Source: Elusimicrobiota bacterium (GTDB lineage: Bacteria; CG03; SLGR01; PWQF01). From it: 60,499 bases of DNA. Location: contig PWOI01000078.1 in NCBI GenBank assembly GCA_003557485.1, positions 1 to 60,499 on the forward strand, written 5' to 3'. The notes below the pieces were generated by a model. That model was not told where the DNA came from. It made no database searches and saw only the letters and a program-made list of their open reading frames with translations. Position numbers and translations under genes: made by a program. Below are positions 2 to 21,158 of this stretch, piece by piece (the stretch's first letter is position 1; the number at the start of each line of letters is the position of its first letter).

Positions 2-778
2 CTCATTGAATGGGATTATATTGGAGAACTTAAAGAAGTTGTCCTTGTTGTTGACCCCCTGCTAAGCAAAGAAATATCAGGCAACATTCTTTTTACCGCG
101 GAATTTCTTGATATAGATGAAATCACTAAAACTGAATTTGACCCGGATTACAATTATGGAATACTTGATGCAGGCAGTATGGGTGTTTTTGATATCGGGG
201 AAGCTTCCGGCATTACAAGTCGTATTTATGACGAGAAAAGAGACAAGTATGTAATAAAGTTTGATTTTAAAGTTGACGGCGATTCAGTTGTAGGCGTTTG
301 GACCCAAAACTATCCATTGGATATCTCTCCTGACCGATATGATGCCGTAAGAGCAGGGGTATACTCACCGTCTCAACGGGCGGCAGATTCTGTTTGGGTC
401 AAACTTGAAATTAAAGGCGATACGGGACAGCAGGACATCCCACTTGAACTTTCTAAGGGATGGGCGATCTTTAAGGAACCGATACAGTGGAATAAAGTTG
501 GATCTCTGAGGGAAGTTGTATTTGTTGTTTATCCTCAATCAACAATTAATTTTCAGGTCAGCCAGTTCGCAAGCCCTGTAGATCACGCGCCAAGCGCACC
601 TGAAGCTGTTGAGGGAACTTTACTGCTTGATATCGAATTTGAAACTCTTAACTTAATGGAAAAAACTGAGGGCAAACTATTTTTGGTATTTATGTTCGGA
701 TTTATTTTAACATTTCTCACTGGAACCGGACATAAAATTTTTGGACGCGGCAGAAAAAAGAATGTGAAAGACAAATGA
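2..778 (+). CDS. 5'-truncated protein with tandem extracytoplasmic beta-rich domains and a C-terminal TM helix; possibly the N-terminal part of the following GH94 gene
   Basis: The frame is open from base 2 (LIEWDYIGELKEVVLVVDP...), upstream of the track ATG at 179. That segment repeats as IQWNKVGSLREVVFVVYP. Hydrophobic LFLVFMFGFILTFLTG lies near the end. Confidence 0.75.
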   Translation, partial: LIEWDYIGELKEVVLVVDPLLSKEISGNILFTAEFLDIDEITKTEFDPDYNYGILDAGSMGVFDIGEASGITSRIYDEKRDKYVIKFDFKVDGDSVVGVWTQNYPLDISPDRYDAVRAGVYSPSQRAADSVWVKLEIKGDTGQQDIPLELSKGWAIFKEPIQWNKVGSLREVVFVVYPQSTINFQVSQFASPVDHAPSAPEAVEGTLLLDIEFETLNLMEKTEGKLFLVFMFGFILTFLTGTGHKIFGRGRKKNVKDK

Positions 779-984
779 ATAATAACTCTATAGGAATTTC
801 TTATCCGGCCGGAGGCAGGCTAAAAGGATTTAAACTGGACTTTTTATACGGCATATATACTCTTCTTATTGCTGCTTCGGCAATAGGAATATACATCCTT
901 GGAGCTGTATACAGAACAATGAGTGTTTTTGATGTCAACCTGACTATCATGACGATAGCTTTTACCGGAACACTTGCTGTGTAG
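775..984 (+). CDS. 69-aa two-TM segment in frame with the GH94 ORF, separated from it only by TAG 982-984
   Basis: Sequence GTG TAG ATA TTA AAA ATG GGA. Positions 775 and 994 are in the same frame and there is no SD before ATG 994. Confidence 0.6.
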   Translation: MNNNSIGISYPAGGRLKGFKLDFLYGIYTLLIAASAIGIYILGAVYRTMSVFDVNLTIMTIAFTGTLAV

Positions 985-993
985 ATATTAAAA

Positions 994-3900
994 ATGGGAC
1001 TTACCGGAAGAGGTTTGACTCCGGCGGAAGTATTTCAGAATTTTATTATCGCGGGTGTTATTTCAGCCACTTCAACTCCCAAGGCGCTGCTTCAGGTCCC
1101 GGGATCTTTCTCTCAAATATTTAATATAAGCCATATGACAGCTGCAATTGCGTTTACCATCTACTTTACGGTAAACGCCGCATATCTGGCAGTAAAGAAG
1201 AAACATGTAAAAACCCTGACCGGAATAATGATCCTGGGGACACCCTACCTGACCGGATGGCTACTTTTACTTGGAAACCCGGGATTTTTAAGACATATTA
1301 CCGGACTGCTGACATCAGGCGTTTTCTGGAAACATCCGGTTTTTCTTGAAATAACCGGGCGGTTACTTATTGTTTTTCTATTTAATGAAGTTGTTACCAA
1401 TGTAATACGACTGGCTACTAAGTCCGAAGTTCTGAAATCGTTTAAAGCTCACCTTTATTTATTCCTTATATCCCTTGCGGTCTGTCTCTCTCCGTATATA
1501 GCAGACGCAGGTTCTACCACAGCAGTAGCCGCCATGCCTTTTGCATGGCAATCCCTTATTGCGATTATAACTACAGTGCTGTCACACGGACCCCTTTGGG
1601 GAGTGACCTACCTTCTCACGGGAATGCTGTTGGACGGGGCCCAGGGCACTGCGCCTTCACAGGAAACTATTGCAGGAAATATTTCAAGGGGAATAAAAAA
1701 AGGAATGGCATTCAGCGGCATTTTTATGACGCTTTTATACCTTTTGAGAATGGTTTTAGCAGCTGACACTTCACAATTTTTAATAAACGCTCTACCTGTA
1801 ATCATAGGCACTGCTGCAGGGGCTCTTATTTTTCCATTTATAAAGAATGTAATTGAAACCTTTGACGGCAGTAAACCTTTCTTCATAAGGCTTCGTTACT
1901 CTTACCGCAACTGGATACTCTATCTGCGCGGTGCTGTATTCGGTTTCGGGATGGCATACGGAATAACTATCGGAATGTTTGATCTTCCCATGTCCTCAAG
2001 AATACCTTACGGACTGGCTGTGGGAATAGCTGCTTCCGGGCTGATCAGCCTTATCAGGGATGTGATTTACAAAGTCAGGGGGCAGGGAGATATACAGACC
2101 TGGAAACTTTATTTTTTTGATACTCTTATCGGCGGTTTTGTGGGTAGCGCCCTTGCTTTTTATCTTGACACTGCGCAGGTCCCGGTTGTCATTGAAAAAT
2201 TCTACCAGTATACAACCGCAGGTTTTGAAGGCCGGCCATACATAACATTTCCTTTGCTGAACAAATGGGGAATGATTGACCTGGGTGTCTATGCCGGCGG
2301 GGTAAAACTTCTTTATACCGAAGCTCTTGCGGGTGTTCTGAACTGGTCAGTGGCTGCCTGGCTTTTTGCAATTAACCGCGTATTAATGGAAGCATATTTT
2401 AAAAAGGACAAGTCGGTAATTAAAAACTTTTTTTCAAAGGAAGGGGCAGTGGACCTTGTAAAACACCTTGTGCGGGTCATGCGATGGGGACTTTGGATGG
2501 CGCCGATTATTTTTACTTTTCTTCGTATGATGCCCGAACCTACCTGGTATAACCAGGACGGACTTGTAAGGACATTTTTTGCTACTATTCAGAGCATAAC
2601 AAGTTCAACAGAATCATTCCATATCTGGAGCCTGAATGTTTTCCTTTATATTTTGATTTATGACTTTTTCCGGATTCTTATCTGGATAGATCATATGGGC
2701 CTTCGTGTTGCCACCCTTGTCAACTGGAGCTTTTTAGGGCTTGACCGCCTTGATGATAAAATTGCGCGCTTTATCGGCCCCATAACCGCCCAGAAATATA
2801 TACCGGAGGGAGTAAAACGTTTTGTAACATGGGCTCCACTGCTTATACCGTTTTATATGCCTGCCGGCGAAGCATGGGACTATCTTTGGACTTCTTCTCA
2901 GGCGATGCGTACGGCTCCAATGTACAGAACACTTCTTGATTTCTTTGGAACGCTTTCAGGAAACCAGATGTTTTTATTTTCCCTGGGGGCGCTTTTCCTG
3001 ACAACAGGAGCTTTTTCCGGGGCAAGATTCCTGAAGTCTAAAAGAAAAAAGAAAAAAACTTATACCCTCCGCAGCGGAGATTACAGCGTACGTGTTAATG
3101 AAAACGGCAGCCTTTACAGCTCCATCAGAAAGGAAGTATATAATAAATGGCAATCCCAGACTGATATTTTTGAATATGATATCAGCCGCCGTTCGTACGA
3201 CATAATAGATCCGTGCGGAAGAACGCTCTTTATAAAGGACAATGAAAACAACGGAGACTATTGGCCGGTAGCCGGGAATTATCCTGAAGACAAGTTTCAA
3301 AAATCGCATATTACCAGAAAAAATAACCGTATTAGTCTGGTTAATGTTCAAAACGGTATTAAAACAACTGTTAACATATCCATACCGGAAAAACGTCTCC
3401 ATGCTGAATTGTGGGACATAAAGATTGAAAACCTGACTGAAAGGAACCGCTCCATTAAACTTATTCCTTACCTGGAATGGGTCTTAAACAGTCCTAATGA
3501 CGACGTTTTCAACCCGCAATATACAAAAATGTTTTCTCAGGTAGAATACAATGCAGAATCAAATGCCATACTCTCATGGGAAAAGAAGAAGAAAATAATG
3601 GGATTCATGGCTATGGATGCTAGACCGGAGGGTTTTCTAAATTACAGGCTTGATTTTATAGGAAGAGCACGAAGTATCTGGAAACCCGAAGCGTTGGATA
3701 CCCTGGACTTTATGCAGCCGGCTGACACCCCCGGTTATCCTACGTTTGACCCCATAGGTTCAATGCTTATAGATTCTAATCTTAAATCCGGCGGAACAAA
3801 AAATTTCAAACTTATTATAGGATGCGCAGACAACAAAGATGAAGCGCTTTCTGTAATAAACAGAATAATAAAACCTGACGGACTTTCGGAAAATACTGCA

Positions 3901-6297
3901 GAAAGAATAAATACGGAAAAAAAGAGGCCACTTATCGGTCATGGCAAAATTCCTGCCGGCACCCCGCAGCCGTATCACAGCTACATAAATAACGGAAACA
4001 GCATGATTGTGAAAACGCCATATACACCCAGGCCATTTGACCATCAGATGTCTAATAAATTCAGCCATTCGGTTATGCTTACCAACAGGGGCCTGCACAC
4101 AACCTGCAACCATAATTCCCAGCAGAACCGCCTGACTCCTGACTGCGCAGATATTGTCACCCGCGAGATACCGGGTGAAGCATTCTATATATATGATATT
4201 GATTACGGCGACTGGCATTCTCCCACATATCATCCGCTGAACAATCCAGAAGCAGATTATGAAACAGAATTCAGCGTTGATGGAACCGCTGTTTACAGAA
4301 TGTCGCGCAAGGACATTGAAACTGAGCTGACTGTCTTTGTTCCGCCCGATGAGCCGGCCGGAATATATATGCTTAAAATTAAAAATAACAATGACTCACC
4401 AAAGAGACTGAGAATTTCTCCCTATTTCCAGATGGTGCTGGGTTTTGTCCCTTCACAGGGGCAGCCGGGTGCGTCGATGCCAGCCGGCCTCACTATAAAA
4501 AAAGACGGAAATAACGGGGCTTTGTACTTTGAAAATCCTTCAAACAGTTTCCGTCGCGGACCTGCATTTGTTTCGATGACAGTAAAGCCTGAAGTAACCG
4601 AAACACAAAGAGGAAAATTTTTCGGCGCCGGACGAGGGATAGACAATCCTGTACTGCTTCATCACGGAAAACCGGATTTATCATCCAATGATTATAAAAG
4701 GCCCATAGCTGCTTTGCTTAAAACTATAGTGGTTGCGCCGGGTCAGGAGTACACACTGGCAGCAATTATGGGTCAGACTGATACACAGAAAGATGCCGAA
4801 AGGATAGTACATAAGTACAGAGACCTTAAAAGTGTCAGATCCGCTCTTACTGAAACCCGCGACTGGTGGAACAACCTGATGTCAACTGTGGAAGTTCAGA
4901 CTAACAAGGAAGAGTTTGATCACATGTTGAACTGGCTTAAATACCAGGACATAGTTGACCGGGTATGGTCCAGAAGAGGGTTCTATCAGTCCAGCGGAGC
5001 TTACGGGTACCGCGACCAGCTTCAGGATACAATAAACATAATGTGGGTAGACCCTAAAATGGCCCGCAACCAGATTATACTCCATGCATCCCAGCAATTC
5101 ATAGAGGGAGATGTTTTCCACTGGTTTTTTACACTCCCGGACGGAAGTACAGCCTTCGCATGCCGCAGCAACGCTTCCGACAACCTGCTGTGGCTAGTTT
5201 GGGGTACTGTAGAGTATATTAAATCTACAGGTGACTATTCTATACTGGATGAAGTCACATCCTATGTATATTCAGAGGACCCCTTTGAGAAACTTCCTAA
5301 AAATCCTCACGGAGTAGGAGGGCTCTATGGAAGATCAACACGTTCGGACACTATATACAGGCACTGTTTGAAATCAATAGATCTTGTTTTTAATAATAGA
5401 ACAGGTATCAACGGCCTTCCGCTTATACAGACAGGTGACTGGAATGACGGCCTTGATGAAATAGGCAGCCAGGGTAAGGGCGAAAGTGTATGGCTGGGTA
5501 TTTTCCTTTTCTACAGCCTCACGGAAATGCTTCCTGTTATTGAAAAGAGGGATGGAAAAAAACAAAGGGATTACTATGAAGGAAAGCTTAACGGGCTTAA
5601 AGACTCCATAGAAAAAACCTGGAGAGAAGACCGGTATCTGAGAGCCTTCCATGATGATGGAACAGAAATAGGTATTAAGGGAAGCGGAATATGGGAAATT
5701 GACGCTCTTACTGCAGCCTGGGCCGTCATATCCGGGGTAAACCCTGAACGTTCGGAGATAATGTTTAATACAGCCCTAGATGTTCTTGAAAAAGGAAACC
5801 AGATTCTTCTTGGCTGGCCGGCTCTTAATGAAGACAGTAAACCTTACCTTGGAAGAAGCTGCGTTTATCCTGCCGGTGTACGGGAAAACGGTATGTATTG
5901 CCATGGAGTCCAGTGGCTGATACAAGCGGCAAGGATACTTGCGCGAAAGCATGAACAGCAGGGCAACACCGCTAAAGCCGACGAGTACAGGCAGACTACT
6001 TACAGACTGTGGAGGAAAATCACCCCTGTTGCCCATACTACTCCTGAAGAAATTGAAGTCTACGGCGGCCAGCCCAACAAACAGCAGGCAGATGTTTTGA
6101 CAAATTTTGATCCCGGAAGAATGATCTGGAACGGTTACACAGGTTCGGGAGGATGGCTTTTCAGGGATGCGATTGAAGGCGTTATAGGAGCATCTCTGAA
6201 AGAAAACAAGCCCGTTATGCCTGAAGACCTTGAGAAACCCCGGGGAGAACTTAAAATAATTAAATTAAAGCGGGATATAAAAAGAAGCCCGCTCTAA
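994..6297 (+). CDS. Polytopic membrane protein fused to a GH94 (glycosyltransferase-36-type) glycoside phosphorylase resembling the NdvB/Cgs C-terminal region
   Basis: About 680 aa of successive hydrophobic helices, then two GH94N-like beta-sandwich segments (TPRPF...NSQQNRLTP...PGEAFYI) and catalytic-domain motifs GFYQSSGAYGYRDQLQD, GDWNDG, GESVWLG, GVRENG and YTGSGGW. Confidence 0.88.
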   Translation: MGLTGRGLTPAEVFQNFIIAGVISATSTPKALLQVPGSFSQIFNISHMTAAIAFTIYFTVNAAYLAVKKKHVKTLTGIMILGTPYLTGWLLLLGNPGFLRHITGLLTSGVFWKHPVFLEITGRLLIVFLFNEVVTNVIRLATKSEVLKSFKAHLYLFLISLAVCLSPYIADAGSTTAVAAMPFAWQSLIAIITTVLSHGPLWGVTYLLTGMLLDGAQGTAPSQETIAGNISRGIKKGMAFSGIFMTLLYLLRMVLAADTSQFLINALPVIIGTAAGALIFPFIKNVIETFDGSKPFFIRLRYSYRNWILYLRGAVFGFGMAYGITIGMFDLPMSSRIPYGLAVGIAASGLISLIRDVIYKVRGQGDIQTWKLYFFDTLIGGFVGSALAFYLDTAQVPVVIEKFYQYTTAGFEGRPYITFPLLNKWGMIDLGVYAGGVKLLYTEALAGVLNWSVAAWLFAINRVLMEAYFKKDKSVIKNFFSKEGAVDLVKHLVRVMRWGLWMAPIIFTFLRMMPEPTWYNQDGLVRTFFATIQSITSSTESFHIWSLNVFLYILIYDFFRILIWIDHMGLRVATLVNWSFLGLDRLDDKIARFIGPITAQKYIPEGVKRFVTWAPLLIPFYMPAGEAWDYLWTSSQAMRTAPMYRTLLDFFGTLSGNQMFLFSLGALFLTTGAFSGARFLKSKRKKKKTYTLRSGDYSVRVNENGSLYSSIRKEVYNKWQSQTDIFEYDISRRSYDIIDPCGRTLFIKDNENNGDYWPVAGNYPEDKFQKSHITRKNNRISLVNVQNGIKTTVNISIPEKRLHAELWDIKIENLTERNRSIKLIPYLEWVLNSPNDDVFNPQYTKMFSQVEYNAESNAILSWEKKKKIMGFMAMDARPEGFLNYRLDFIGRARSIWKPEALDTLDFMQPADTPGYPTFDPIGSMLIDSNLKSGGTKNFKLIIGCADNKDEALSVINRIIKPDGLSENTAERINTEKKRPLIGHGKIPAGTPQPYHSYINNGNSMIVKTPYTPRPFDHQMSNKFSHSVMLTNRGLHTTCNHNSQQNRLTPDCADIVTREIPGEAFYIYDIDYGDWHSPTYHPLNNPEADYETEFSVDGTAVYRMSRKDIETELTVFVPPDEPAGIYMLKIKNNNDSPKRLRISPYFQMVLGFVPSQGQPGASMPAGLTIKKDGNNGALYFENPSNSFRRGPAFVSMTVKPEVTETQRGKFFGAGRGIDNPVLLHHGKPDLSSNDYKRPIAALLKTIVVAPGQEYTLAAIMGQTDTQKDAERIVHKYRDLKSVRSALTETRDWWNNLMSTVEVQTNKEEFDHMLNWLKYQDIVDRVWSRRGFYQSSGAYGYRDQLQDTINIMWVDPKMARNQIILHASQQFIEGDVFHWFFTLPDGSTAFACRSNASDNLLWLVWGTVEYIKSTGDYSILDEVTSYVYSEDPFEKLPKNPHGVGGLYGRSTRSDTIYRHCLKSIDLVFNNRTGINGLPLIQTGDWNDGLDEIGSQGKGESVWLGIFLFYSLTEMLPVIEKRDGKKQRDYYEGKLNGLKDSIEKTWREDRYLRAFHDDGTEIGIKGSGIWEIDALTAAWAVISGVNPERSEIMFNTALDVLEKGNQILLGWPALNEDSKPYLGRSCVYPAGVRENGMYCHGVQWLIQAARILARKHEQQGNTAKADEYRQTTYRLWRKITPVAHTTPEEIEVYGGQPNKQQADVLTNFDPGRMIWNGYTGSGGWLFRDAIEGVIGASLKENKPVMPEDLEKPRGELKIIKLKRDIKRSPL

Positions 6298-6398
6298 TAC
6301 AAATTATGAGCTTTGAAAAAAAATCCATTCTGTATCATATTTATATCATGGTTATTTAAGAATGTATTTTTGAGCTAGTAAAGAAAGGATTTTTTCAA

Positions 6399-8870
6399 AT
6401 GGTTTATTTATCAAAAATTATTATTATTGCCTATACTCTTCTGAGCATTGCAGGGTTTACCGTAAAAGCAGAGGAAATCCTCCTGATTGATGACTTCAGA
6501 AACGACCGCAGGGTAAACCTGCTTAATTCGCAGACTGGCCCCTGGGAAATGGACCCGCAGGATGAATCGGAATGGGCCTGCTGCCAGGCAGTTACAACCG
6601 AGAGAGACGGGCAGGAAACAAGAGCCCTTAAAATAGAATATAAAGTGTTTCCGGGAGCTTTCAACGGCTATTTCACAAAACTAAACGGAGTAGACGGAAG
6701 GTCCTATGAAAGACTGGAATTTTACGTGAAAGGGGGAGAAAGATTTCCCCGGCGCTTTAAACTGGAACTTAAGAATAAGGCGGGAGAAACGGGTAACTAC
6801 TATGTTTCGTCAATATCCGAAGACTGGGAAAAATATTCTGTGCCCTTTTACCAGTTCAGGGGGCTCAGAGATTTATCCGGACTTGATGAACTTGTAATTG
6901 TTTTTGAAGGAAATGTCGTCGGTGAACCCGAGGGTTCAATTTATATTGACAATCTTAAGCTGTCCGGCAGCAGAGAGAGGCATATAAAAGTATCCCAAAA
7001 AATACAAGACGAACAGCTTAAAAAACGCGGCGAAATAGATACTCTTCTTGCTATGGGGGAAGATGACCTCCTTGAAACAATATCAAAAAAAGTCTTTAAT
7101 TACTTCTGGGAAGAGACTGATCCGCAAACCGGCTTTATAAGAGACCGGTCGCGTACAAATGTCCCATCCAGTATAGCGGCAACCGGTTTCGGCCTGGCCG
7201 CAATATCTATAGGAGTCCATAGGGGATGGGTTGATTACGACAGGGCCCGGGAAAGAGTTATTAAAACTTTAAAAAACATCAAAAACAAGGCAGAAGGGCA
7301 TAAGGGTTATTTTTATCATTTCATTGATATGAGAACGGGAAAGAGAGCCTGGCAATGCGAACTTTCTTCGGTTGATACGGCTTTGCTTTTCGGCGGTATT
7401 ATAGTTGCCCGTGAGTATTTCGAATGTAACGAAATAACCGAATTGGCTGATGAACTCTACTATGCGGTAGAATGGCCCTTTATGGTAGAACCCAATACTA
7501 AGGGAGTTTATATGGGATGGGACCCGGAAAACGGTTTCGATGAGTATATATTGTGGGACATGTACGGGGAACAGATGTTAATGTATATACTGGGGCTGGG
7601 TTCTCCGACACATCCTTTTCCGCAGGAAACCTGGCATTCATTCCGGCGCCCCGTAAAGCTCTATGACGATATTGCCTATATCTATTGCGAAAGCGAGTCT
7701 CTTTTTGTATATCTCTTCTCCCATGCATTTATTGATTTCCGGGATAAGCATGATGATTACGCCGATTATTGGGTCAACAACAAAAACGCCGTAAAGGCGC
7801 ATATAGCCTTCTGCCGCAACAATCCGCTGGGGTTTGAAGTATTTGAAAAAGGATTATGGGGGATTTCGGCAAGCGACGGCCCTGACGGCTATAGAAATTA
7901 CGGGGCGACTGTCTTCACCACAGACGGGACCATAGCCCCTTATTCCGTACCCGGTTCCTATCCCTTTGTTCCCGAGGAAGCGCTGAGTACAATACGGCTT
8001 ATGGTTGATCTCTACGGGGAAAACATATGGGATGCTAACCGCTACGGTTTCGTAAGCGCTTTTAATCCTGAAAGAAACTGGTACTCGGGGGAATTTATTG
8101 GCATAGACCTGGGAATAATGCTTCTTATGATGGAAAACTACAGGAGCGAGTTCATCTGGGATCATTTTATGCGTAATGAATATGTTCAGCGCGGTATGGA
8201 GAAGGCCGGTTTTCGCGAGGGGACAAAAGAAATTGAGTATGACCCCGCTGATATGGAACAAATAGGGCTTGACAGGAGATCATACACTGCCAGAAGAATA
8301 GACAGCCATCAAGAACTTACTGAAGATGACTTTACCAGTATGGATGATACTATGTTCGAATTCGGAAAAACCGATTACCGCGGAGACCTCCAGGCTGAGT
8401 TTGCGCTGGGATGGAACCCCGAATACCTCTTTGTAACTGCAAATGTAAAGACTGACATTGTTATAGCTGATATGCCCCCCAACCGCATCTATCAGCATGA
8501 CTCCGTTGAAATATTTATTTCACCCAATGAATTTCTGACCTGGGCCTACCCGACGCACTTCCAGATTGGTTTTTCACCGTCAGGCCCGGATAACGTTCCG
8601 CAGGTATATTCTTATTTTCAGAATGAAATTCCGGAAAATTACGTAACAGTTGAATCGGAAATAACAGACCGGGGATATATAATAAACGCCGCGGTACAGT
8701 GGGAATACCTTCGCATTAACCCTGAAGCCAGAAACACAATAGGGTTTTCACTTGCGGTCCATGATATGGAAAGACCGCGCAGGGACGGCGCCGGCGGCGC
8801 AAAACTTAACTGGGCATTCAGCCAGACACCGGCAGGAATTCTTCTGGGAGAGCTTATACTTCAACAGTGA
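6399..8870 (+). CDS. Secreted glucoamylase-like (PF10091-type, GH144-like beta-1,2-glucanase) with N-terminal CBM11/CIA30-like and C-terminal CBM9/DOMON-like domains
   Basis: Signal peptide; motifs SSIAATGFGL, GYFYHFID, ELSSVDTALL, WGISASDGPDGY, DGTIAP and IGIDLGIMLLMMENYR; C-terminal WNPEYLFV...DSVEIFI...GYIINAAVQW; SD AAAGGA. Confidence 0.85.
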   Translation: MVYLSKIIIIAYTLLSIAGFTVKAEEILLIDDFRNDRRVNLLNSQTGPWEMDPQDESEWACCQAVTTERDGQETRALKIEYKVFPGAFNGYFTKLNGVDGRSYERLEFYVKGGERFPRRFKLELKNKAGETGNYYVSSISEDWEKYSVPFYQFRGLRDLSGLDELVIVFEGNVVGEPEGSIYIDNLKLSGSRERHIKVSQKIQDEQLKKRGEIDTLLAMGEDDLLETISKKVFNYFWEETDPQTGFIRDRSRTNVPSSIAATGFGLAAISIGVHRGWVDYDRARERVIKTLKNIKNKAEGHKGYFYHFIDMRTGKRAWQCELSSVDTALLFGGIIVAREYFECNEITELADELYYAVEWPFMVEPNTKGVYMGWDPENGFDEYILWDMYGEQMLMYILGLGSPTHPFPQETWHSFRRPVKLYDDIAYIYCESESLFVYLFSHAFIDFRDKHDDYADYWVNNKNAVKAHIAFCRNNPLGFEVFEKGLWGISASDGPDGYRNYGATVFTTDGTIAPYSVPGSYPFVPEEALSTIRLMVDLYGENIWDANRYGFVSAFNPERNWYSGEFIGIDLGIMLLMMENYRSEFIWDHFMRNEYVQRGMEKAGFREGTKEIEYDPADMEQIGLDRRSYTARRIDSHQELTEDDFTSMDDTMFEFGKTDYRGDLQAEFALGWNPEYLFVTANVKTDIVIADMPPNRIYQHDSVEIFISPNEFLTWAYPTHFQIGFSPSGPDNVPQVYSYFQNEIPENYVTVESEITDRGYIINAAVQWEYLRINPEARNTIGFSLAVHDMERPRRDGAGGAKLNWAFSQTPAGILLGELILQQ

Positions 8871-10810
8871 AAAAGACAGCTATATTACTTTTTCTAGTCA
8901 GCTTTTTGTTCCGTTATGCGGACGCCGATAGGGTTTTAATTGACACTATTCACCCCGACAATTGGAATGTTGCAACAGAAACTGACACGATTACTTCCAG
9001 TTATGACGAAAGTGCTGATTGGATGAAAGTAGAATATGAACTTGACGGTGGAAAATGGATAGCTGTTTATCCCTCAACAAACACCAAAGAAAGGGAAATG
9101 GGACTTCTGAATGCCTCTGCCGGAGATGCAGTAAGCTTCCGGGCCAGGGGAACCGGTTTTACGAATAACTTACAGATTCAAATTCACGATTCCAACGGCA
9201 ACGTGCATGCGCGCAATATTAATAATATAACAGGTTTAACCCGGTGGAATAAATTTGTGGTTCCTTTTGATTCTCTTGATATCTGGGAGGGAGAAAGCCT
9301 TCAAAAAGAAAAAATCACAAAAATGGCTTTTGCCGTTACACCTTCAGACGGGAGATACGGGACAGTAACTATTGATGACATAAAGTCATACCGGCTCCAG
9401 ACTCCTGAAAAACTAACCGTAAGCAGCTTCGATTTCGGAACACCGCCCAACGAACTCGGCGGCAATGAAGGGGAGATGTCACATGATGGTCTATATGATC
9501 CTGATGTTTCATACAGCAGGGATACGGCTAACGGGGGTATCTTCTCTTTGAAACTTGATTATGATTTACCTTCTGACTGGTGCGGATACTGGATCCATCT
9601 TGGACCCGACGAAGACCCGGATGAGGGGAATGAAGATATTAAACATCTGGATGTTTCAGGATATACCTCTCTGGATTTTTATATTAAAACCACCGTACCA
9701 GGATTAAACATAAAAATTGAAGTAGAGGATGAGGACGGTAAAGATGAAGCACTGCTCAATGATCATCTTGCCGGTGGCGCCACTACATCCTGGCAATCCG
9801 TAAGTATTCCTGTAAGCTCTTTTACAGCTGTTGACAGCAGTAAATTAATAACTCTTGCATTTGTTATTGACGACACCCCATCCAGCGGTACGGTTTACAT
9901 AGATGAAATAATGTTCGTAACAGGGGATCCCTATACCGGCGGCTCGGAAGAAGTGCTTGATCCAATGGATATGCCTGCCCGTATTTCCGGCTGGCAGAAT
10001 TTTGGACTTGATGAAGACAGCGGCATTACAAAAACCTCTCTTGAAAGCGTTGCCGGCCGAAAGGGCGGCAATGCCATAAGACTGAACTATGAATTCAATA
10101 GGAAGTCCGGCGCTCGGGAAACCGACTGGGTTGTAATGGAAAGGGACTGGGGGCTTAATTTTTCCAAAGCTACTCACTTCGGCCTGGAATACCGCGGGCG
10201 AGGAGATTCAAATAACCTGGAATTTAAAATTGCCGATAAAAACGGTACAATTTACTGGCGCAAATTCTTTTCTATTACAGATACAGGCGGAGAATGGAAA
10301 GAACTTGTAATACCCGTTAAAGAACTCGTACTGTTTGAAAAAGGAAGTGATAACGGGAATGTTTTTACTGCCCTGGACCTTACTAAAATAAACAAGTTTG
10401 AGTTTGCTGTTTCAGGAAAGGAAGGTTCAAAAGGATTGATCGAATTTAGAAACCTTGCAGCTTACTACAGCAGCGATTTCAGTGAAAAGCGCAGAGGCAA
10501 AATTCTAGAGGAAGTGAAAGTTACAAACAACCCTTTTGCGCCCAACAGCGACGGCATTAAAGATACCACGGAATTTATTTATATTCTTTCTACTTTTGCA
10601 ACCGTAGAACTTCAAATTTTCTCCCTCAAAGGAGACTTGATATATGATGACGACACAACTTTTTTTGTAAGAGGTAAAAACTCCTTTAAATGGGACGGGA
10701 AAGATAATTCGGGAAAATTAGTCCCGAACGGCCTTTATTTTTACGTTCTTGAAGCTAACTGCGTTGTTAGCTCTGATATTTTTAAACATGTGATAGCGGT
10801 TATACGATGA
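8867..10810 (+). CDS. Secreted protein with three CBM11/CIA30-like domains and a FlgD-Ig/T9SS-like C-terminal sorting domain
   Basis: Signal peptide; three repeats of the pattern F..G..NNL.I.I.D...W..V.IP...G.V.ID; C-terminal NNPFAPNSDGIKD...WDGKDNSGKLVPNGLYFY...IAVIR. Confidence 0.8.
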   Translation: MKKTAILLFLVSFLFRYADADRVLIDTIHPDNWNVATETDTITSSYDESADWMKVEYELDGGKWIAVYPSTNTKEREMGLLNASAGDAVSFRARGTGFTNNLQIQIHDSNGNVHARNINNITGLTRWNKFVVPFDSLDIWEGESLQKEKITKMAFAVTPSDGRYGTVTIDDIKSYRLQTPEKLTVSSFDFGTPPNELGGNEGEMSHDGLYDPDVSYSRDTANGGIFSLKLDYDLPSDWCGYWIHLGPDEDPDEGNEDIKHLDVSGYTSLDFYIKTTVPGLNIKIEVEDEDGKDEALLNDHLAGGATTSWQSVSIPVSSFTAVDSSKLITLAFVIDDTPSSGTVYIDEIMFVTGDPYTGGSEEVLDPMDMPARISGWQNFGLDEDSGITKTSLESVAGRKGGNAIRLNYEFNRKSGARETDWVVMERDWGLNFSKATHFGLEYRGRGDSNNLEFKIADKNGTIYWRKFFSITDTGGEWKELVIPVKELVLFEKGSDNGNVFTALDLTKINKFEFAVSGKEGSKGLIEFRNLAAYYSSDFSEKRRGKILEEVKVTNNPFAPNSDGIKDTTEFIYILSTFATVELQIFSLKGDLIYDDDTTFFVRGKNSFKWDGKDNSGKLVPNGLYFYVLEANCVVSSDIFKHVIAVIR

Positions 10811-11667
10811 AGAAGATAATTTATATTTTCATATTATTTTTGAGTTTTCCTTCTTTTGCCGGAGCGGGGGCCTTCAACACTCTTCCTCCAAATGCCCTTT
10901 CTGCGGGAATGGGAGGGTCCCGTGTAGCGGGTAGAGGAGAAGTAAGCTGCCTGGATTATAATCCTGCAGGGCTTTCTTGCATTGATAATTTAAACCTGTC
11001 TTTTTCGTACAGGGATTACTATTCTCTGGGACTTGTAGGTCATTCATATGCAGGACTGGCTTACCCCGTGGGGCAAGGTGTCGGATTTGCTTTTTCCCTT
11101 GACAGGGTTGGCACTACCAGGAATATTGAATTTTTAGATTACTCAGAAGAGAAATATTCATTGGGAGTAGGCGCTGATGTTAATAGTATACCGGGCCTTT
11201 CGGCAGGCGGCGCTTTTACTTTCTACCGTGTTGTATCGGAGGAAAACGCTTCCGGCTGGGGGCTTTCAGGAGGACTGCTCTGGACTCCGCAGAATCTAAA
11301 AGAACTAAGTTTAGGCCTTTCTTTAAGAAACCTTAATAACCCGGCAATAACCTGGACAACCGGGGCGGAAGACAGGCTTTCGCCGTCTTTTGCAACCGGC
11401 CTTGAATACAGGCATTTTTCAGGACTTTCCGGGGCATTGAGCCTGGGAGACGGGCTTAAAACCGGAGTTCAATACGATTTTCCCGGAAACATCTTTTCCC
11501 TCAGGGCGGGCTATCGCGGGCTTGCAGATTTCAGAGGGACTTTATCGGCAGGGTTAAGCGTTGCTTACAGCTTCTTCAGAATAGATTACGCCGCCGAAAG
11601 CCATGCAGCCCTTGGTTTATCCCATTTCTTTACGGTAAACACATACATAGACAGAATCAGAATGTAG
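10807..11667 (+). CDS. PorV/PorQ/PorP-like outer-membrane beta-barrel
   Basis: Signal peptide, ALSAGMGG...YNPAGL N-terminal motif, amphipathic strands, RIDYA...LGLSHFFTV end. Confidence 0.8.
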   Translation: MKKIIYIFILFLSFPSFAGAGAFNTLPPNALSAGMGGSRVAGRGEVSCLDYNPAGLSCIDNLNLSFSYRDYYSLGLVGHSYAGLAYPVGQGVGFAFSLDRVGTTRNIEFLDYSEEKYSLGVGADVNSIPGLSAGGAFTFYRVVSEENASGWGLSGGLLWTPQNLKELSLGLSLRNLNNPAITWTTGAEDRLSPSFATGLEYRHFSGLSGALSLGDGLKTGVQYDFPGNIFSLRAGYRGLADFRGTLSAGLSVAYSFFRIDYAAESHAALGLSHFFTVNTYIDRIRM

Positions 11668-11690
11668 TAAAATATATATCGGAGGATTAT

Positions 11691-13772
11691 ATGAAATATT
11701 TATTTAAATTTGTTTTCTGCGCTTTAGTTATTACAGCTTTTTCTACTGTAGCACTGCAAGCCAGGACATTGAAAGTTGAAGACTTCAACCGAACAAGTTT
11801 TGTAGGCCCACTAGGCCCCCATAATGTCTGGATGATGGATGAGGATGATCCCACAAGCGGGATCAGGGCCGATTTTGCAAGAACCCGGGACGGCCATGCG
11901 CTTAAACTCACATATAGTGTCGATTCTCCTGCAACAACGATATGGGGATCCGCATTTATTCCGGATTACTCGGAGTTTAATATTATAGGAATGGCTGACG
12001 GACTTCCACATGTCAGTCCCTGCGGATATTTCTTTAAACTTGGCAATGCCAATCTGACCAGGTATGAATACCTGGTTTTTTCTGCCCGCGGCGATGAGTT
12101 TGATGGTTTTACGCGCAAGATACAGATTGAACTTAAAACAGCAAACCGTACAAGCTCATTCATTTTGGACGGAATAGGCCCCACGTGGCGTAAATTTGCC
12201 GTTCCCCTGTCTGTTTTTGACCGTATTGATGACTGGACCAATGTTTCTGAATTAGCCATAGCTTTCAATGAAATAGCAACTGCTGAGCGCGGTACAATTT
12301 ATCTTGACAATATTTATTTTGCCGTCAATCCTGATCATGTGCCCGCATCCGATGGCGGATACGGCAGGCCTGTAGAAGAAAAAGATGTTTTTGATTACCG
12401 TCTCTACCAGATAGTTGAAACCGGGGTCAACTTCCGCCAGACTCCGGAGCGCGGCGCAGAACTTTTTTCTTCGGCCGGAGGAGTAATCCAGGGAAAACAC
12501 GGGCCGCTTACGGGCCGCCTGCGTTTTTCTGTTGACGCAACTGAATTCGGGGCGGCAGGGTTCCGGAGGCCCCTTGACGATTATCCCTATAGCCGTTTTG
12601 AACAGCCTTCCAGAGACATCTACTTTCCTACGGTACAGCTCAAGGTGCACGGTCTGACTCCCCTTGCTGCACGGATAACGCTGGGTCATCTTTACCTGGG
12701 ATATTCGCCGTATGTTTTCAGCCCGTTTTTCGGGTATAAGGGATTGAAAGTTGAAGGGTCAAAAGAACTATTTGACCATTCAACCTTTGTTATTAAAAAA
12801 CCTCTTAACTCATTCTCTGTCGGCAGCCAGATGGCTGCTTATATCGGAGACCATAGGCTGCAGCTTCTTGGTGTATATGACTATGAAACTGCTAAACTGC
12901 CGTCATCTTCTTCGGGACCCGGTTTTCTTCAGGAAGGGGAGATGGATATAAAAGAAGTTTCAAATGAGTTTGCCTGGGAACTAGGAGCCCTTTTAAGGCT
13001 GCTGGATTACCGGCTTAACTTTGAACTCAAGTATGCTGATTTCCGGTTTAAACAGCGTGCCCATGCAGATTACGAATTTCCTGAAGAACCCGCATACAGC
13101 CATAATATATCTTCTCCGACTTTGACCGACAATATGTATGAGGCTAATCTCTATCTTACAGGACTTCCTATTTACGGTTCCAGGCTGCTTTTTTCCTACA
13201 GAGAGGTCGGAACTGATTTTATTCCCGCGTACAGGCAGGAACCAGGTGTCTTTGAAAACATATTTGCTGATTCCAGGGGTTTTCTTTTGAGGGGAGAACA
13301 GTGGTACGAAGATTACGGCGCCCGTCTCTGGTGGGAGACCAGGGACCGGATATCCGACAGTGATTACGGTATTGATGTCATAAGTTACGGGCTTATGTAC
13401 CGGGGCCCGAGTGAAATGGAGCTTGCTCTGAGCATGGAGCATAAAAAGGAGAGCTACGAATACCTTCCCAGGAAAATAGATCTTCGTGACCTAAAAATGA
13501 CCAGCCTCATTTTCGCGGGTAGATATAATTTTTTCTATGCAGACACACCGGGCATAAGGTTTCCGCTTACCTTAACTTTTGAATTCAGAGAAGACAGGAT
13601 AGATAACCGCGTTGAAAAAAAGGATGAAGTTAATCACGTTATGCGCCTGGGGCTGGAGTACCAGCTAAGGTCAAACCTGGGTTTTTCTGCCGACCTTCGC
13701 GCCTCTACACGCAATAATCCGGCTGATTTAACCGACAATGCTTTTAATATGTACCTTAACGGTACGTTCTGA
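11691..13772 (+). CDS. CBM-like domain fused to a probable outer-membrane beta-barrel
   Basis: SD GGAGG; signal peptide; N-domain similar to the GH144 N-domain (YEYLVF..G...F.R...ELK...W.K..VP...GTIYLDNI); strand-rich C-region ending YLNGTF. Confidence 0.7.
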   Translation: MKYLFKFVFCALVITAFSTVALQARTLKVEDFNRTSFVGPLGPHNVWMMDEDDPTSGIRADFARTRDGHALKLTYSVDSPATTIWGSAFIPDYSEFNIIGMADGLPHVSPCGYFFKLGNANLTRYEYLVFSARGDEFDGFTRKIQIELKTANRTSSFILDGIGPTWRKFAVPLSVFDRIDDWTNVSELAIAFNEIATAERGTIYLDNIYFAVNPDHVPASDGGYGRPVEEKDVFDYRLYQIVETGVNFRQTPERGAELFSSAGGVIQGKHGPLTGRLRFSVDATEFGAAGFRRPLDDYPYSRFEQPSRDIYFPTVQLKVHGLTPLAARITLGHLYLGYSPYVFSPFFGYKGLKVEGSKELFDHSTFVIKKPLNSFSVGSQMAAYIGDHRLQLLGVYDYETAKLPSSSSGPGFLQEGEMDIKEVSNEFAWELGALLRLLDYRLNFELKYADFRFKQRAHADYEFPEEPAYSHNISSPTLTDNMYEANLYLTGLPIYGSRLLFSYREVGTDFIPAYRQEPGVFENIFADSRGFLLRGEQWYEDYGARLWWETRDRISDSDYGIDVISYGLMYRGPSEMELALSMEHKKESYEYLPRKIDLRDLKMTSLIFAGRYNFFYADTPGIRFPLTLTFEFREDRIDNRVEKKDEVNHVMRLGLEYQLRSNLGFSADLRASTRNNPADLTDNAFNMYLNGTF

Positions 13773-16572: not shown

Positions 16573-17545
<973 letters not shown>

Positions 17546-17556
<11 letters not shown>

Positions 17557-18433
17557 GCTTGACGCAGCGCTTTTAAAGAAAATTTCAACTATGACCCTCA
17601 GGGCGCGTTATGTTGCTGAGGGGTACATATCCGGACTTCACCAAAGCCCTTTCAGAGGACACAGCCTGGAATTTTCCCAGCACCGGCAATACACTCCCGG
17701 AGACGGACTTAAATACCTTGACTGGAAGGTATACGGCCGCAGTGACCGTTTCTACATAAAGCAATTCCAGGAAGAGACAAATCTGCGAGGCTACTCTATA
17801 ATAGATGTATCAGAATCTATGGGATACAGTACTTCTCAGGTCACTAAACTTGAGTACGCTTCTTTTCTTGCTGCAGGAATAACCTATCTGATGATAAAAC
17901 AGCGCGACTCGGCGGGCCTTATAACATTTTCCGAAAACATAGAAGAATTTATGCCGCCTAGAGATTTTCAGGCTCACATGCACCATGTGATGGAGAAGCT
18001 TGACAGACTTAAAAGTAAAGGTAAAACCGACTTCAGAAACTCCTTCACAGAAATAGGGAAGAGAATAAAAAAAAGGAGCATGCTTATTATTTTTTCGGAT
18101 TTTCTTCATGATCCCGAAGACCTGATTAAATCCCTTAAATTTTTTCCATACAGAAAAAACGATGTAATTGCCTTCAATATCCTTGACCCGGGTGAACTCT
18201 CCCTTCAGCATCAGGGCAGCGTTGAATATGTTGATTCAGAAACAGGAGAAAAGTTCAGAACCATACCTTCTGTCATAGGCAGACAGTACTCGGAAAGAAT
18301 GAGAGAACACCTTAAAAAGCTGGAAGATGGATTGCGCCGCCACGGAATAGATTTTTACCCTGTAACCACCGATACTCCTCTGGACAGGGCTTTCGCGGCA
18401 TTTATGGAGGGAAGAAAGAACCTTGCAGTATGA
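17546..18433 (+). CDS. DUF58 domain protein (vWA-like MoxR partner)
   Basis: GLHQSPFRGHSLEFSQHRQYTPGD...DWKVYGRSDR..IKQFQEETN; DVSESM. Confidence 0.93.
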
Positions 18434-20424: not shown

Positions 20425-21158
20425 ATTTTAAAAAATTTCTTTTAATTCTGTTATTATTACTTTTATTTTTGCCGGGTAACTTCTACGGAGAAGGCCAGGG
20501 TTCCTGGTTTGTAATATCCCAGCTGAAATTCCCGGGCAACTGGGATCCCCACCCGGGGTTTTTTTCACAGGTACGCCACTACCTGATGAATACAACCTCA
20601 CTGAGGGTAACGGAAGAAAGAAGGGTCCTCACTCTCCAGGATGAAGAGCTTTTTTATTCTCCGTTTCTTATCCTGACCGGGAGAGGCTCATATCCTCAAT
20701 TCTCAGAATCAGAGATAATAAACCTGCGCAGGTATATTACCGGAGGCGGCCTTCTTTTTATAGATACTGCATCTGATGGCGCATTTTCGGAATCGGTAAT
20801 GCGGACAGTTGAAAGATTGTTTCCTGAAAGGCAATTTACCAGAATACCGGACGATCATGCAGTCTTCAGATCCTTTTACCTGATTGAATACGTATCCGGC
20901 CTTAACATCAGAAAACCCTATCTCGAGGGAATAGAAATCGACGGCAGAATCGCCATCCTGAAATCAGAGAACAATATATTCGGAGTATGGGAAAGAGACC
21001 GTCTGGGCAATTTCTACCATGATCCGGTCCCTGGCCGTACCGGGCAGAGAAAAGAAGCAATAAAACTTACTCTTAACATTGCCATGTACTCGGTATGCGG
21101 AACCTATAAGAGCGACCCGGTTCACCAGCCCCATATAGAACGAAAACTGGGAAGATGA
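20421..21158 (+). CDS. DUF4159 domain secreted protein
   Basis: Signal peptide; GNWDP, YSPFLILTG, LRRYITGGGLLFID, IPDDHAVFRSFYL, YKSDPVH. Confidence 0.85.
   Translation: MNFKKFLLILLLLLLFLPGNFYGEGQGSWFVISQLKFPGNWDPHPGFFSQVRHYLMNTTSLRVTEERRVLTLQDEELFYSPFLILTGRGSYPQFSESEIINLRRYITGGGLLFIDTASDGAFSESVMRTVERLFPERQFTRIPDDHAVFRSFYLIEYVSGLNIRKPYLEGIEIDGRIAILKSENNIFGVWERDRLGNFYHDPVPGRTGQRKEAIKLTLNIAMYSVCGTYKSDPVHQPHIERKLGR

What the first reader, a model, noticed from the sequence alone, without database searches (positions are those of the whole stretch)
2..13772. Candidate SusC/D-free beta-1,2-glucan system spanning both membranes
Seen: adjacent co-oriented genes encode a membrane-embedded GH94, a secreted CBM-GH144-CBM9-like enzyme, a triple-CBM protein with a secretion CTD, a PorV/PorP-like barrel and a CBM-capped outer-membrane barrel. 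No TonB receptor, SusD, ABC transporter or GT84 synthase motif is visible in the locus, although its left end is cut off. Known: GH144 enzymes are beta-1,2-glucanases, and double-GH94N phosphorylases (Cgs C-terminal domain, SOGP) act on beta-1,2-glucans. Inference: the set forms an alternative capture-import-phosphorolysis machine, or a phosphorylase-driven synthesis/export machine, that I do not recognise as described. This is the strongest candidate for a new system in the window.
Basis: partly seen in the sequence, partly recalled or inferred. Interest (0 to 1): 0.85.

Follow-up and report, generated by a model that had tools for sequence, protein, structure and literature searches.

The report
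Membrane-embedded phosphorylase in beta-1,2-glucan locus
This gene cluster most likely lets an uncultured salt-lake bacterium capture and break down the rare sugar polymer beta-1,2-glucan, and at its centre sits a widespread but unstudied protein that joins a large membrane domain of unknown fold to a sugar-splitting phosphorylase.

Summary
Window 2-13772 is a tight, co-oriented cluster. It encodes an inner-membrane-anchored periplasmic repeat protein and a ~760-aa polytopic membrane domain fused to a Cgs-type GH94 phosphorylase. It also encodes a CBM-GH144-CBM9 beta-1,2-glucanase homologue, a 3xCBM protein with a T9SS-type C-terminal domain, a weak PorV/PorQ-like protein and a CBM-capped putative outer-membrane protein.

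The left end continues on contig C146 with LacI, two CBM lipoproteins and two LysM-CBM proteins. No GT84, SusC/D or ABC genes lie there. A relative (G009) keeps the whole order.

The membrane domain has no Pfam family and no PDB fold match. It occurs in at least 573 species genomes, mostly Omnitrophota. Every full-length homologue I examined carries it fused to GH94.

In most homologues one CBM-like periplasmic domain is fused in front of it. Here that domain is a separate upstream gene.

GH144 co-occurs with the fusion at genome level. The two outer-membrane genes are lineage-specific.

The genome is not ABC-free. A Lin1841-type sophoro-oligosaccharide ABC importer and an IaSGT-type GH35 lie on other contigs.

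Best reading: a beta-1,2-glucan utilisation locus. The role of the membrane domain is inferred, not shown; import channel is favoured and synthesis/export is the rival.

The parts
2..778 (+). 3' part of a gene for an inner-membrane-anchored periplasmic repeat protein. It holds ~160-aa CBM11-like repeats, then one C-terminal TM helix and a basic tail. The 5' part lies at the end of contig C146.
   Evidence: Window 1-121 matches C146:19505-19625 at 92%. The repeat unit and TM tail are seen. Orthologues with 4-5 repeats lie directly upstream of the GH94 gene in G009, G006 and G008. The repeat is a distant relative of the locus CBM module (hhalign 96.4%, E 1e-9).
775..981 (+). True 5' end of the membrane-GH94 gene: 69 codons with two TM helices, in frame with 994-6297.
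   Evidence: Frame translation. It is 44% identical to residues 13-66 of the G009 orthologue P0003 (E 2e-11).
982..984 (+). In-frame TAG that splits the gene in this assembly. The site is polymorphic.
   Evidence: One search shows Q at this site in G009. The contig of run X1 (depth 7) reads G at 983, giving TGG. The contig of run X2 (same sample, depth 3.65) reads A.
994..3063 (+). Conserved polytopic membrane domain (residues 1-690 of P0001) with no known family or fold. It has 14 invariant Trp and many invariant charged residues.
   Evidence: No Pfam or NCBIfam hit. It is 50-70% identical in the 119 listed homologues. The AF2 model has pLDDT 80.2 and pTM 0.77. Foldseek against PDB gave 0 hits at E<=0.001, with best TM-score 0.10. 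No internal repeat was found.
3064..6297 (+). Cytoplasmic Cgs-type GH94 phosphorylase module: two supersandwich domains plus a catalytic domain. The predicted catalytic Asp is D1485 (codon 5446-5448).
   Evidence: Pfam hits and PDB 8rf9 at E 8e-114. The GDWNDG Asp aligns with chain residue D2509, which I equate with the D2528 the review names for RrCGS by a 19-residue numbering offset that I inferred from the two chain lengths. A basic stretch KSKRKKKK follows the last TM.
6399..8870 (+). Secreted CBM11-like / GH144 / CBM9 enzyme, predicted to be an endo-beta-1,2-glucanase.
   Evidence: The signal peptide is seen.
8867..10810 (+). Protein with three CBM11-like modules and a T9SS-type C-terminal domain, predicted to be a surface glycan-binding protein.
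10807..11667 (+). PorV/PorQ-family-like outer-membrane protein (weak match), one of about 20 paralogues in the genome.
   Evidence: The orthologue in G009 is 54% identical. No homologue was found in the 80 distant loci.
11691..13772 (+). Signal peptide, one CBM11-like module and a ~480-aa beta-rich region ending in Phe. This is a putative CBM-capped outer-membrane barrel.
   Evidence: Only 6 homologues were found. The AF2 model has low confidence.

Best explanation
The cluster is a LacI-headed beta-1,2-glucan capture and utilisation locus of an uncultured non-Bacteroidota bacterium. One ~165-aa CBM11-like module decorates proteins predicted for every cell layer:
- a T9SS-type surface protein (three copies);
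- a putative outer-membrane barrel;
- two lipoproteins;
- two LysM (peptidoglycan-binding) proteins;
- the GH144 glucanase.

A distant version of the module forms the repeats of an inner-membrane-anchored periplasmic protein.

Shown:
- domain content;
- synteny in G009;
- genome-level coupling of GH144 with the membrane-GH94 fusion;
- a conserved catalytic Asp;
- fusion of the periplasmic domain to the membrane domain in most homologues.

Inferred pathway:
1. Glucan is bound at the surface and crosses the outer membrane.
2. It is cut by GH144 in the periplasm or at the surface.
3. Chains are handed by the periplasmic repeat protein to the polytopic domain.
4. That domain passes them across the inner membrane directly into the GH94 module tethered beneath it.
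5. GH94 releases glucose 1-phosphate, which can feed the adjacent glycogen genes.
6. Short oligosaccharides enter in parallel through the Lin1841-type ABC importer encoded elsewhere.

I put the catabolic direction at about 0.65. I put the specific claim that the membrane domain is the glucan conduit at about 0.4.
For: Substrate evidence:
- The GH144 is closest to characterised beta-1,2-glucanases.
- The GH94 is closest to the Cgs GH94.

Catabolic context in G000 and G009:
- A LacI regulator heads the locus.
- The 2.07-Mb genome has three GH144 genes, two carrying CBM or PA14 domains.
- A Lin1841-type SBP-permease (5ysb, E 1e-86) and an IaSGT-type GH35 (7vkx, E 1e-100) lie 12 kb downstream in G009. 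G000 has orthologues at 55-86% identity.
- This is the same enzyme set that the I. album paper speculates to be catabolic (passages read, PMC8861115).

Wider context:
- The Omnitrophota operon type holds an SBP, two ABC permeases and ROK beside the fusion.
- No Cgs N-terminal/GT84 region was found in G000 (86.6% complete) or in 25 phylum relatives. No large GT2 was found.
- In 151 Omnitrophota, 37 of 81 genomes with strong GH144 have neither the fusion nor Cgs. The glucanases therefore do not depend on the fusion as a source of polymer.
- Cgs and the fusion are not mutually exclusive: 6 of 15 Cgs genomes also carry the fusion.

Evidence for a conduit role:
- The periplasmic CBM-like domain is fused in front of the membrane domain in 66 of 80 loci.
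- GH94 follows the last TM helix without a linker.
- The membrane domain has 14 invariant Trp.
Against: - Nothing shows transport. The direction of flow is not determined by any result.
- The cell already has an ABC importer for sophoro-oligosaccharides, so a second import route is not required.
- In 21 of 31 loci with at least 5 kb on both flanks, no GH144 lies within 10 kb. Some of those loci sit among envelope and housekeeping genes such as Acyl_transf_3, polysaccharide deacetylase, D-Ala-D-Ala carboxypeptidase, Maf and PrmA.
- Two GGDEF genes precede LacI on C146. The glycogen genes could supply glucose 1-phosphate as well as consume it.
- No GH3 beta-glucosidase was found for the sophorose end product (the genome is 86.6% complete).
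- The join of C146 to C130 is inferred from a 92% repeat overlap and from G009 synteny. It is not assembled.
- Sugar binding by the CBM11-like module is untested.
- The window allele carries a stop codon in the gene.
Confidence: 0.5

Rival explanations
1. Synthesis and export. The fusion is a GT84-independent beta-1,2-glucan synthase-translocase. GH94 runs in reverse on glucose 1-phosphate. The polytopic domain extrudes the chain, and the anchored periplasmic CBM protein guides it as BcsB does for BcsA. GH144 then acts as the trimming hydrolase that synthase-dependent exopolysaccharide operons usually carry. The outer-membrane proteins export or hold the polymer as periplasmic or surface glucan.
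For: - SOGP-type GH94 enzymes are reversible in vitro (abstract of PMC3960220).
- No Cgs or large GT2 was found in G000 or in the four related genomes that carry the fusion.
- The repeat protein (signal peptide, carbohydrate-binding-like domains, one C-terminal TM anchor) has the BcsB layout. That layout is recalled, not tested.
- A TPR protein sits directly upstream of the fusion in the Omnitrophota operon.
- Envelope-type neighbours (Acyl_transf_3, deacetylase, DacA-like) occur in other loci.
- Two GGDEF genes lie upstream in G000 and one lies near the fusion in G008.
- One homologue (P0012) carries a GH144-like domain after GH94, recalling the GH189-GH94 order of Cgs.
Against: - Cellular phosphate and glucose 1-phosphate levels normally drive phosphorylases towards breakdown (general knowledge).
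- LacI, ROK, SBP and ABC-importer genes and an IaSGT-type GH35 accompany the locus.
- The CBM-rich secreted glucanases and a surface CBM protein look like capture gear.
- 37 of 81 strong-GH144 Omnitrophota genomes lack both the fusion and Cgs.
- The fusion is not anticorrelated with Cgs (6 of 15).
Confidence: 0.25
2. The locus is catabolic, but the polytopic domain is not a conduit. It only anchors or regulates the phosphorylase at the membrane. It might act as a sensor of periplasmic glucan through the CBM-like domain, or as a scaffold next to the ABC importer. All substrate would then enter through the ABC system.
For: - A Lin1841-type ABC importer is present in G000 and G009, and ABC permeases lie in the same operon in Omnitrophota.
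- No transporter-like internal repeat was found and there is no fold match to any transporter.
Against: - A mere anchor would not need about 700 residues that stay 50-57% identical across phyla, with dozens of invariant polar and aromatic residues.
- The domain is fused to GH94 in every full-length homologue I examined: 5 by Pfam scan and 103 of the 119 listed homologues by precomputed GH94 catalytic domain.
Confidence: 0.2

Closest known systems
[quoted passage not shown]
   Same: Both are large inner-membrane proteins. The C-terminal ~1080 aa here match the Cgs GH94 region, including the duplicated N-terminal sandwich and the catalytic Asp.
   Different: This protein has no GT84/GT2 domain and no GH189 cyclisation domain. 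The N-terminal ~1000 aa of a true Cgs (G038, E 1.7e-178 to 8rf9) find nothing in G000. The membrane domain here is unrelated in sequence and in predicted fold.
SGL/SOGP beta-1,2-glucan degradation gene clusters (Listeria innocua, Chitinophaga pinensis, Ignavibacterium album; PMC8861115 passages read)
   Same: Both combine GH144 glucanases, a GH94 phosphorylase of the Cgs-C-terminal type, an IaSGT-type GH35, a Lin1841-type ABC importer and a LacI-type regulator.
   Different: Here the phosphorylase is fused to a polytopic membrane domain. There is no TonB-dependent receptor or GH3 in the locus. Outer-membrane passage would use unrelated proteins. One CBM module is spread over seven proteins. 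Whether IALB_1177 carries the membrane domain could not be checked, because the supplementary figure is closed.
BcsA-BcsB cellulose synthase translocon (recalled, not tested)
   Same: Both pair a cytoplasmic catalytic module directly under a polytopic domain with a periplasmic carbohydrate-binding partner held by a single C-terminal TM helix.
   Different: The catalytic module here is a phosphorylase, not a GT2. No sequence or fold similarity was found, and the direction of flow is unknown.
Bacteroidota polysaccharide utilisation loci with T9SS-secreted enzymes
   Same: Both have surface glycan-binding proteins, a secreted endo-glycanase, a regulator and co-oriented genes.
   Different: There is no SusC/SusD pair. 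The two Plug-domain proteins of the genome lie on other contigs.

Membership tests
GH94 glycoside phosphorylase | GH94 supersandwich and (alpha/alpha)6 catalytic domains above Pfam cut-offs | tested here: met
   PF06165 scores 240 bits against a cut-off of 23. PF17167 scores 224 bits against a cut-off of 27.
GH94 glycoside phosphorylase | Catalytic Asp in the DWND motif | tested here: met
   D1485 aligns with chain residue D2509 of 8rf9. I equate this with the D2528 of RrCGS named in PMC11842490, using a 19-residue offset inferred from the chain lengths.
GH94 glycoside phosphorylase | Phosphorolysis of beta-1,2-glucooligosaccharides | not testable with these tools
   Specificity is inferred only from the closest relative (Cgs) and from GH144 neighbours.
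[quoted passage not shown] | N-terminal domain plus GT84/GT2 polymerase | tested here: not met
   Residues 1-690 give no PDB or Pfam match. The Cgs N-terminal query finds nothing in G000.
[quoted passage not shown] | Middle GH189 cyclisation domain (hits PF10091 in a true Cgs, G038) | tested here: not met
   P0001 has no PF10091 match.
GH144 endo-beta-1,2-glucanase | GH144 catalytic domain above cut-off and similarity to characterised SGLs | tested here: met
   PF10091 scores 220 bits against a cut-off of 27. PDB matches are 8xul (XcSGL) at 2e-64 and 5gzh (CpSGL) at 2.4e-47.
GH144 endo-beta-1,2-glucanase | Catalytic residues and endo action | not tested
   Residue-level comparison was not done.
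Sus-like PUL | Adjacent SusC (TonB-dependent) and SusD genes | tested here: not met
   There are none in window 1-16 kb or on C146. Plug domains occur only on C31 and C43.
T9SS cargo | C-terminal sorting domain | tested here: met
   CHU_C scores 40.1 bits against a cut-off of 27 and FlgD_ig scores 41.9 against 27. TIGR04131 scores 24.7, below its cut-off of 35.
T9SS cargo | T9SS translocon in the genome | tested here: inconclusive
   SprA model TIGR04189 gives only sub-cut-off pieces (86 bits against 200) in a 1731-aa ORF on C42.
PorV/PorQ family | Score above the NF033709 cut-off | tested here: inconclusive
   The score is 43.6 bits against a cut-off of 90. Seven other paralogues in G000 pass the cut-off.
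Synthase-dependent exopolysaccharide secretion (Bcs/Alg/Pga type) | Membrane GT2 synthase | tested here: not met
   The locus has no GT2. The genome has only two weak PF13632 matches in ~310-aa ORFs.

The most novel reading that the evidence does not exclude
The ~700-aa polytopic domain is a new class of inner-membrane glycan translocase, mechanically coupled to a phosphorylase. A periplasmic CBM-like domain feeds a beta-1,2-glucan chain through the membrane into the GH94 active site. Successive phosphorolysis then pulls the chain in and conserves the bond energy as glucose 1-phosphate without ATP. This would be the functional mirror image of synthase-dependent polysaccharide secretion. Run in reverse, it would be a nucleotide-sugar-independent synthase-exporter. 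The shared CBM11-like module would then be a new beta-1,2-glucan-binding CBM family.
Probability: 0.35. Interest if true: 0.9.

Novelty: new variant of a known kind. Interest (0 to 1): 0.72.

Why it matters
Beta-1,2-glucans are symbiosis, virulence and osmoprotection factors. The papers read here describe their transporters as poorly characterised (abstract of PMC13731917).

This locus points to a protein family found in at least 573 species-level genomes, and in 46 of 151 sampled Omnitrophota. The family ties a Cgs-type phosphorylase to a strongly conserved membrane domain with no family name and no fold match.

If the domain moves glucan chains, it would be a new way to couple polymer transport to energy-conserving cleavage or to synthesis. 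It would also explain why small-genome, energy-limited lineages keep a 1,800-2,700-aa protein.

Three clean biochemical targets follow:
- the fusion with its periplasmic partner;
- a candidate beta-1,2-glucan CBM family;
- a non-Sus outer-membrane route.

Tried and rejected
- Complex prediction of the membrane domain (A1, 1-690) with the C-terminal 258 aa of the repeat protein (A3) gave no verdict (score 0.02). It is not used as evidence either way.
- The protein atlas did not hold the window protein. The homologue P0029 returned only generic (alpha/alpha)6 hydrolase clusters at scores <= 0.87.
- hhalign self-comparison of the membrane domain found no internal repeat.
- The AF2 model of the CBM-capped outer-membrane protein was too poor (pLDDT 52.7) for a fold search. 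'Barrel' therefore remains a prediction.
- Promoter and terminator scans were no better than shuffles: 29 against 30.2 and 20 against 17.3.
- The Omnitrophota SBP (L049) is not specifically Lin1841-like. Its best match is an arabino-oligosaccharide SBP, and Lin1841 scores only 2e-14.
- The Kelch protein at 32937-34736 shows no detectable sorting domain like that of the 3xCBM protein.
- Run X3 (soda lake) holds only bases 600-698 of the stretch laid. It is not used.
- I considered a reassigned TAG codon and rejected it. One contig of the same sample reads TGG and the orthologue has CAG, so a point polymorphism or an assembly error is simpler.

Full report
**What is there**

The window is the first 60.5 kb of contig C130 of a 2.07-Mb, 86.6%-complete assembly. 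Positions 2-13772 hold six co-oriented ORFs with gaps of -4 to 216 nt.

- **GH94 fusion.** The 1767-aa product of 994-6297 has a hydrophobic N-terminal ~690 aa. A complete Cgs-type GH94 module follows. Its best solved relative is 8rf9/8rf0 at E 8e-114, against 8e-44 for cellobiose phosphorylase. The DWND catalytic Asp is conserved as D1485.
- **GH144 enzyme.** 6399-8870 is a signal-peptide protein with a CBM11-like module, a GH144 domain and a CBM9 domain. The GH144 domain is closest to the characterised beta-1,2-glucanases XcSGL (8xul) and CpSGL (5gzh).
- **3xCBM protein.** 8867-10810 has three CBM11-like modules and a CHU_C/FlgD_ig C-terminal domain.
- **PorV-like protein.** 10807-11667 is a sub-threshold PorV/PorQ-family match.
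- **CBM-capped protein.** 11691-13772 has a signal peptide, one CBM module, a beta-rich remainder and a terminal Phe. Its AF2 model is poor, so the barrel is unproven.

**Corrections to the gene models**

The GH94 gene starts at 775, overlapping the upstream stop as ATGA. Bases 775-981 encode two further TM helices that match the N-terminus of the G009 orthologue.

The window carries an in-frame TAG at 982-984, and G009 has Gln at that site. A contig of run X1 (depth 7) reads TGG. A contig of run X2 from the same sample reads TAG. An intact allele therefore exists in the population, and the stop may be a minor variant or an error.

ORF 2-778 is the end of a periplasmic protein made of ~160-aa repeats. 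It finishes with one TM helix and a basic tail.

**The cut-off left end**

Window 1-121 matches the last bases of contig C146 at 92%, inside the same repeat gene.

In relative G009 (same order, different family) one contig carries the following order:

1. LacI
2. a small CBM lipoprotein
3. a CBM11-like lipoprotein
4. one LysM/CBM-like gene (G000 has two)
5. a 4-repeat protein
6. the membrane-GH94 gene (70% identity)
7. GH144 (56%)
8. the 3xCBM protein (39%)
9. the PorV-like gene (54%)
10. the CBM-capped protein (58%)

C146 therefore almost certainly precedes C130. Upstream of LacI, C146 carries two GGDEF genes, a ROK kinase, three GH57 genes, GT5 and GT4 genes (glycogen-type) and a PA14-GH144. 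No GT84, SusC/D or ABC gene lies there.

**One module everywhere**

Pairwise BLAST and an HMM show the same ~165-aa CBM11-like module nine times in seven proteins of the reconstructed locus. The HMM was built partly from these same proteins.

The repeats of the periplasmic protein are a distant branch of the same fold family (hhalign 96.4%, E 1e-9).

**The membrane domain is a widespread, unnamed family**

- A word-indexed search gave 1134 hits at E <= 0.001 among 8000 scored candidates. The 119 listed homologues are 50-70% identical over the domain. They are annotated 'hypothetical' or given an automatic 'cyclic beta-1,2-glucan synthetase' label.
- Exhaustive phmmer over 1.84 billion representatives gave 421 clusters at E <= 0.001. 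Among the 150 listed, proteins of 1650 aa or more carry the domain in their N-terminal half; only 2 of the 150 (P0007, P0051) also carry precomputed GH94 annotations. The short hits look like fragments, so stand-alone forms are not excluded.
Most are Omnitrophota. Others are labelled Elusimicrobiota, Sumerlaeota, Planctomycetota, Auribacterota and Limisphaerales.
- The domain has no Pfam or NCBIfam match.
- Its AF2 model is decent (pLDDT 80.2, pTM 0.77). It has no PDB fold match: 0 hits at E <= 0.001 and best TM-score 0.10.
- No internal repeat was detected.
- The alignment shows 14 invariant Trp and many invariant Asp, Glu, Arg, Lys, Asn, Gln and His residues.
- GH94 follows the last TM helix directly after a KSKRKKKK stretch, so it is cytoplasmic and tightly tethered.

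**Rosetta-stone link**

In 66 of 80 loci the CBM-like periplasmic domain is part of the same ORF, N-terminal to the membrane domain. In G000, G006, G008 and G009 it is a separate upstream gene with several repeats. One homologue, P0012, adds a GH144-like domain after GH94.

**Co-occurrence**

- *Relatives.* Among 41 relatives, the fusion occurs in G000, G005, G006, G008 and G009. All five have GH144. Of the nine other same-order genomes searched, eight show no PF10091 match and one shows only a weak one.
- *Omnitrophota.* Among 151 sampled genomes, 46 match the domain (43 strongly) and 90 match PF10091, usually with 3-8 copies. All 43 strong carriers have a PF10091 match.
- *Adjacency.* Adjacency is weaker. 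A GH144 catalytic homologue lies within 10 kb in 15 of 80 loci, and in 10 of the 31 loci with at least 5 kb on both flanks. CBM11-like proteins are present in 12 of 31 and ABC permeases in 9 of 31.
- *Omnitrophota operon type.* One operon type reads RR, HK, CBM11-like protein, CBM-GH144, TPR protein, fusion, CBM11-GH144-like protein, two ABC permeases, an unknown gene and ROK. An SBP lies upstream.
- *Other loci.* Other loci sit among housekeeping or envelope genes.
- *Outer-membrane genes.* The PorV-like gene has no homologue in the 80 distant loci. The CBM-capped protein has one homologue there (L092, 27%) and only five others in 5.8 billion clusters.

**Import or export**

For catabolism:
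- LacI heads the locus.
- The glucanases are CBM-rich.
- G009 has an IaSGT-type GH35 (7vkx, E 1e-100), a second LacI and a Lin1841-type SBP-permease (5ysb, E 1e-86) 12 kb downstream. G000 has orthologues on C41/C87/C132.
- This is the enzyme set that Kobayashi et al. speculate to degrade beta-1,2-glucan in I. album (PMC8861115, passages read).
- A true Cgs N-terminal query (G038, E 1.7e-178 to 8rf9) finds nothing in G000 or in the 25 phylum relatives.
- In Omnitrophota, Cgs occurs in 15 of 151 genomes and 6 of those also carry the fusion. Of the 81 strong-GH144 genomes, 37 have neither. The glucanases therefore do not depend on the fusion for substrate, and the fusion does not replace Cgs.

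For synthesis:
- GH94 enzymes are reversible.
- No known synthase was found in G000.
- The architecture resembles BcsA/BcsB.
- There is a TPR neighbour, envelope-type neighbours and GGDEF genes.

No result fixes the direction. I rate catabolism at about 0.65.

**Comparison with known systems**

The protein is not a Cgs, because the GT84 and GH189 domains were tested and are absent. The locus is not a Sus-type PUL.

It is closest in content to the SGL/SOGP clusters. It differs in three ways: the membrane-fused phosphorylase, the CBM relay and the outer-membrane parts.

The answered searches of the held library for GH94 with transmembrane, membrane-bound, Omnitrophota, Sumerlaeota or GH144 gene-cluster terms found no description of the fusion. 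Passages read did not mention it either. Supplementary figures, including Fig. S1 of PMC8861115, were closed, so a prior drawing of such a fusion cannot be excluded.

**Verdict**

The locus is a new variant of beta-1,2-glucan utilisation loci. Its central protein family is widespread, uncharacterised and possibly a new kind of glycan translocase.

Noticed in passing
window 982-984: An in-frame TAG splits the membrane-GH94 gene in this assembly. One contig of run X1 reads TGG at this codon and one contig of run X2 (same sample) reads TAG. The G009 orthologue has Gln there.
   Followed up: yes
window 32937-35662: A Kelch/fn3 protein (599 aa) is followed, with a 4-nt overlap, by another PorV/PorQ-like gene (309 aa). 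This is the same pairing as the 3xCBM protein with its PorV-like gene. G000 has 27 PorV_fam matches (7 over cut-off) in 2.07 Mb, which suggests a lineage habit of pairing secreted proteins with dedicated PorV-like barrels.
   Followed up: partly
G008:C47:62928-68186 and G003:C25:20476-25758 (L015, L010): Open frames reported as 32335 aa and 11860 aa contain both GH94-catalytic-like and GH144-like stretches. These would be giant multi-domain proteins with beta-1,2-glucan enzyme modules.
   Followed up: no
Omnitrophota sample G041-G193: PF10091 (GH144-like) matches occur in 90 of 151 genomes, typically 3-8 copies in genomes of 1.4-3 Mb. The same search matches 1 of 14 well-known control genomes. 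This is an unexplained enrichment of beta-1,2-glucan enzymes in the phylum.
   Followed up: partly
window 16573-23278: The genes following the locus look like a MoxR/DUF58/Bat-type cluster. A GATase1-like domain protein lies at 21155-23278. Only that last gene was scanned; the earlier genes are judged from their N-terminal sequences.
   Followed up: no
window 27966-29885: A protein combines a partial GGDEF match (residues 103-183) with HEAT repeats.
   Followed up: no
window 45626-49789 (- strand): A 1387-aa BcrAD/BadFG ATPase fused to a DUF2229 CoA-enzyme-activase domain.
   Followed up: no
L003 (G000:C146) 2522-10937: A glycogen-type gene set (GT4, three GH57, GT5-like synthase) lies between a PA14-GH144 and the ROK/GGDEF/LacI genes that head the locus. 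It is a possible sink or source for glucose 1-phosphate.
   Followed up: partly
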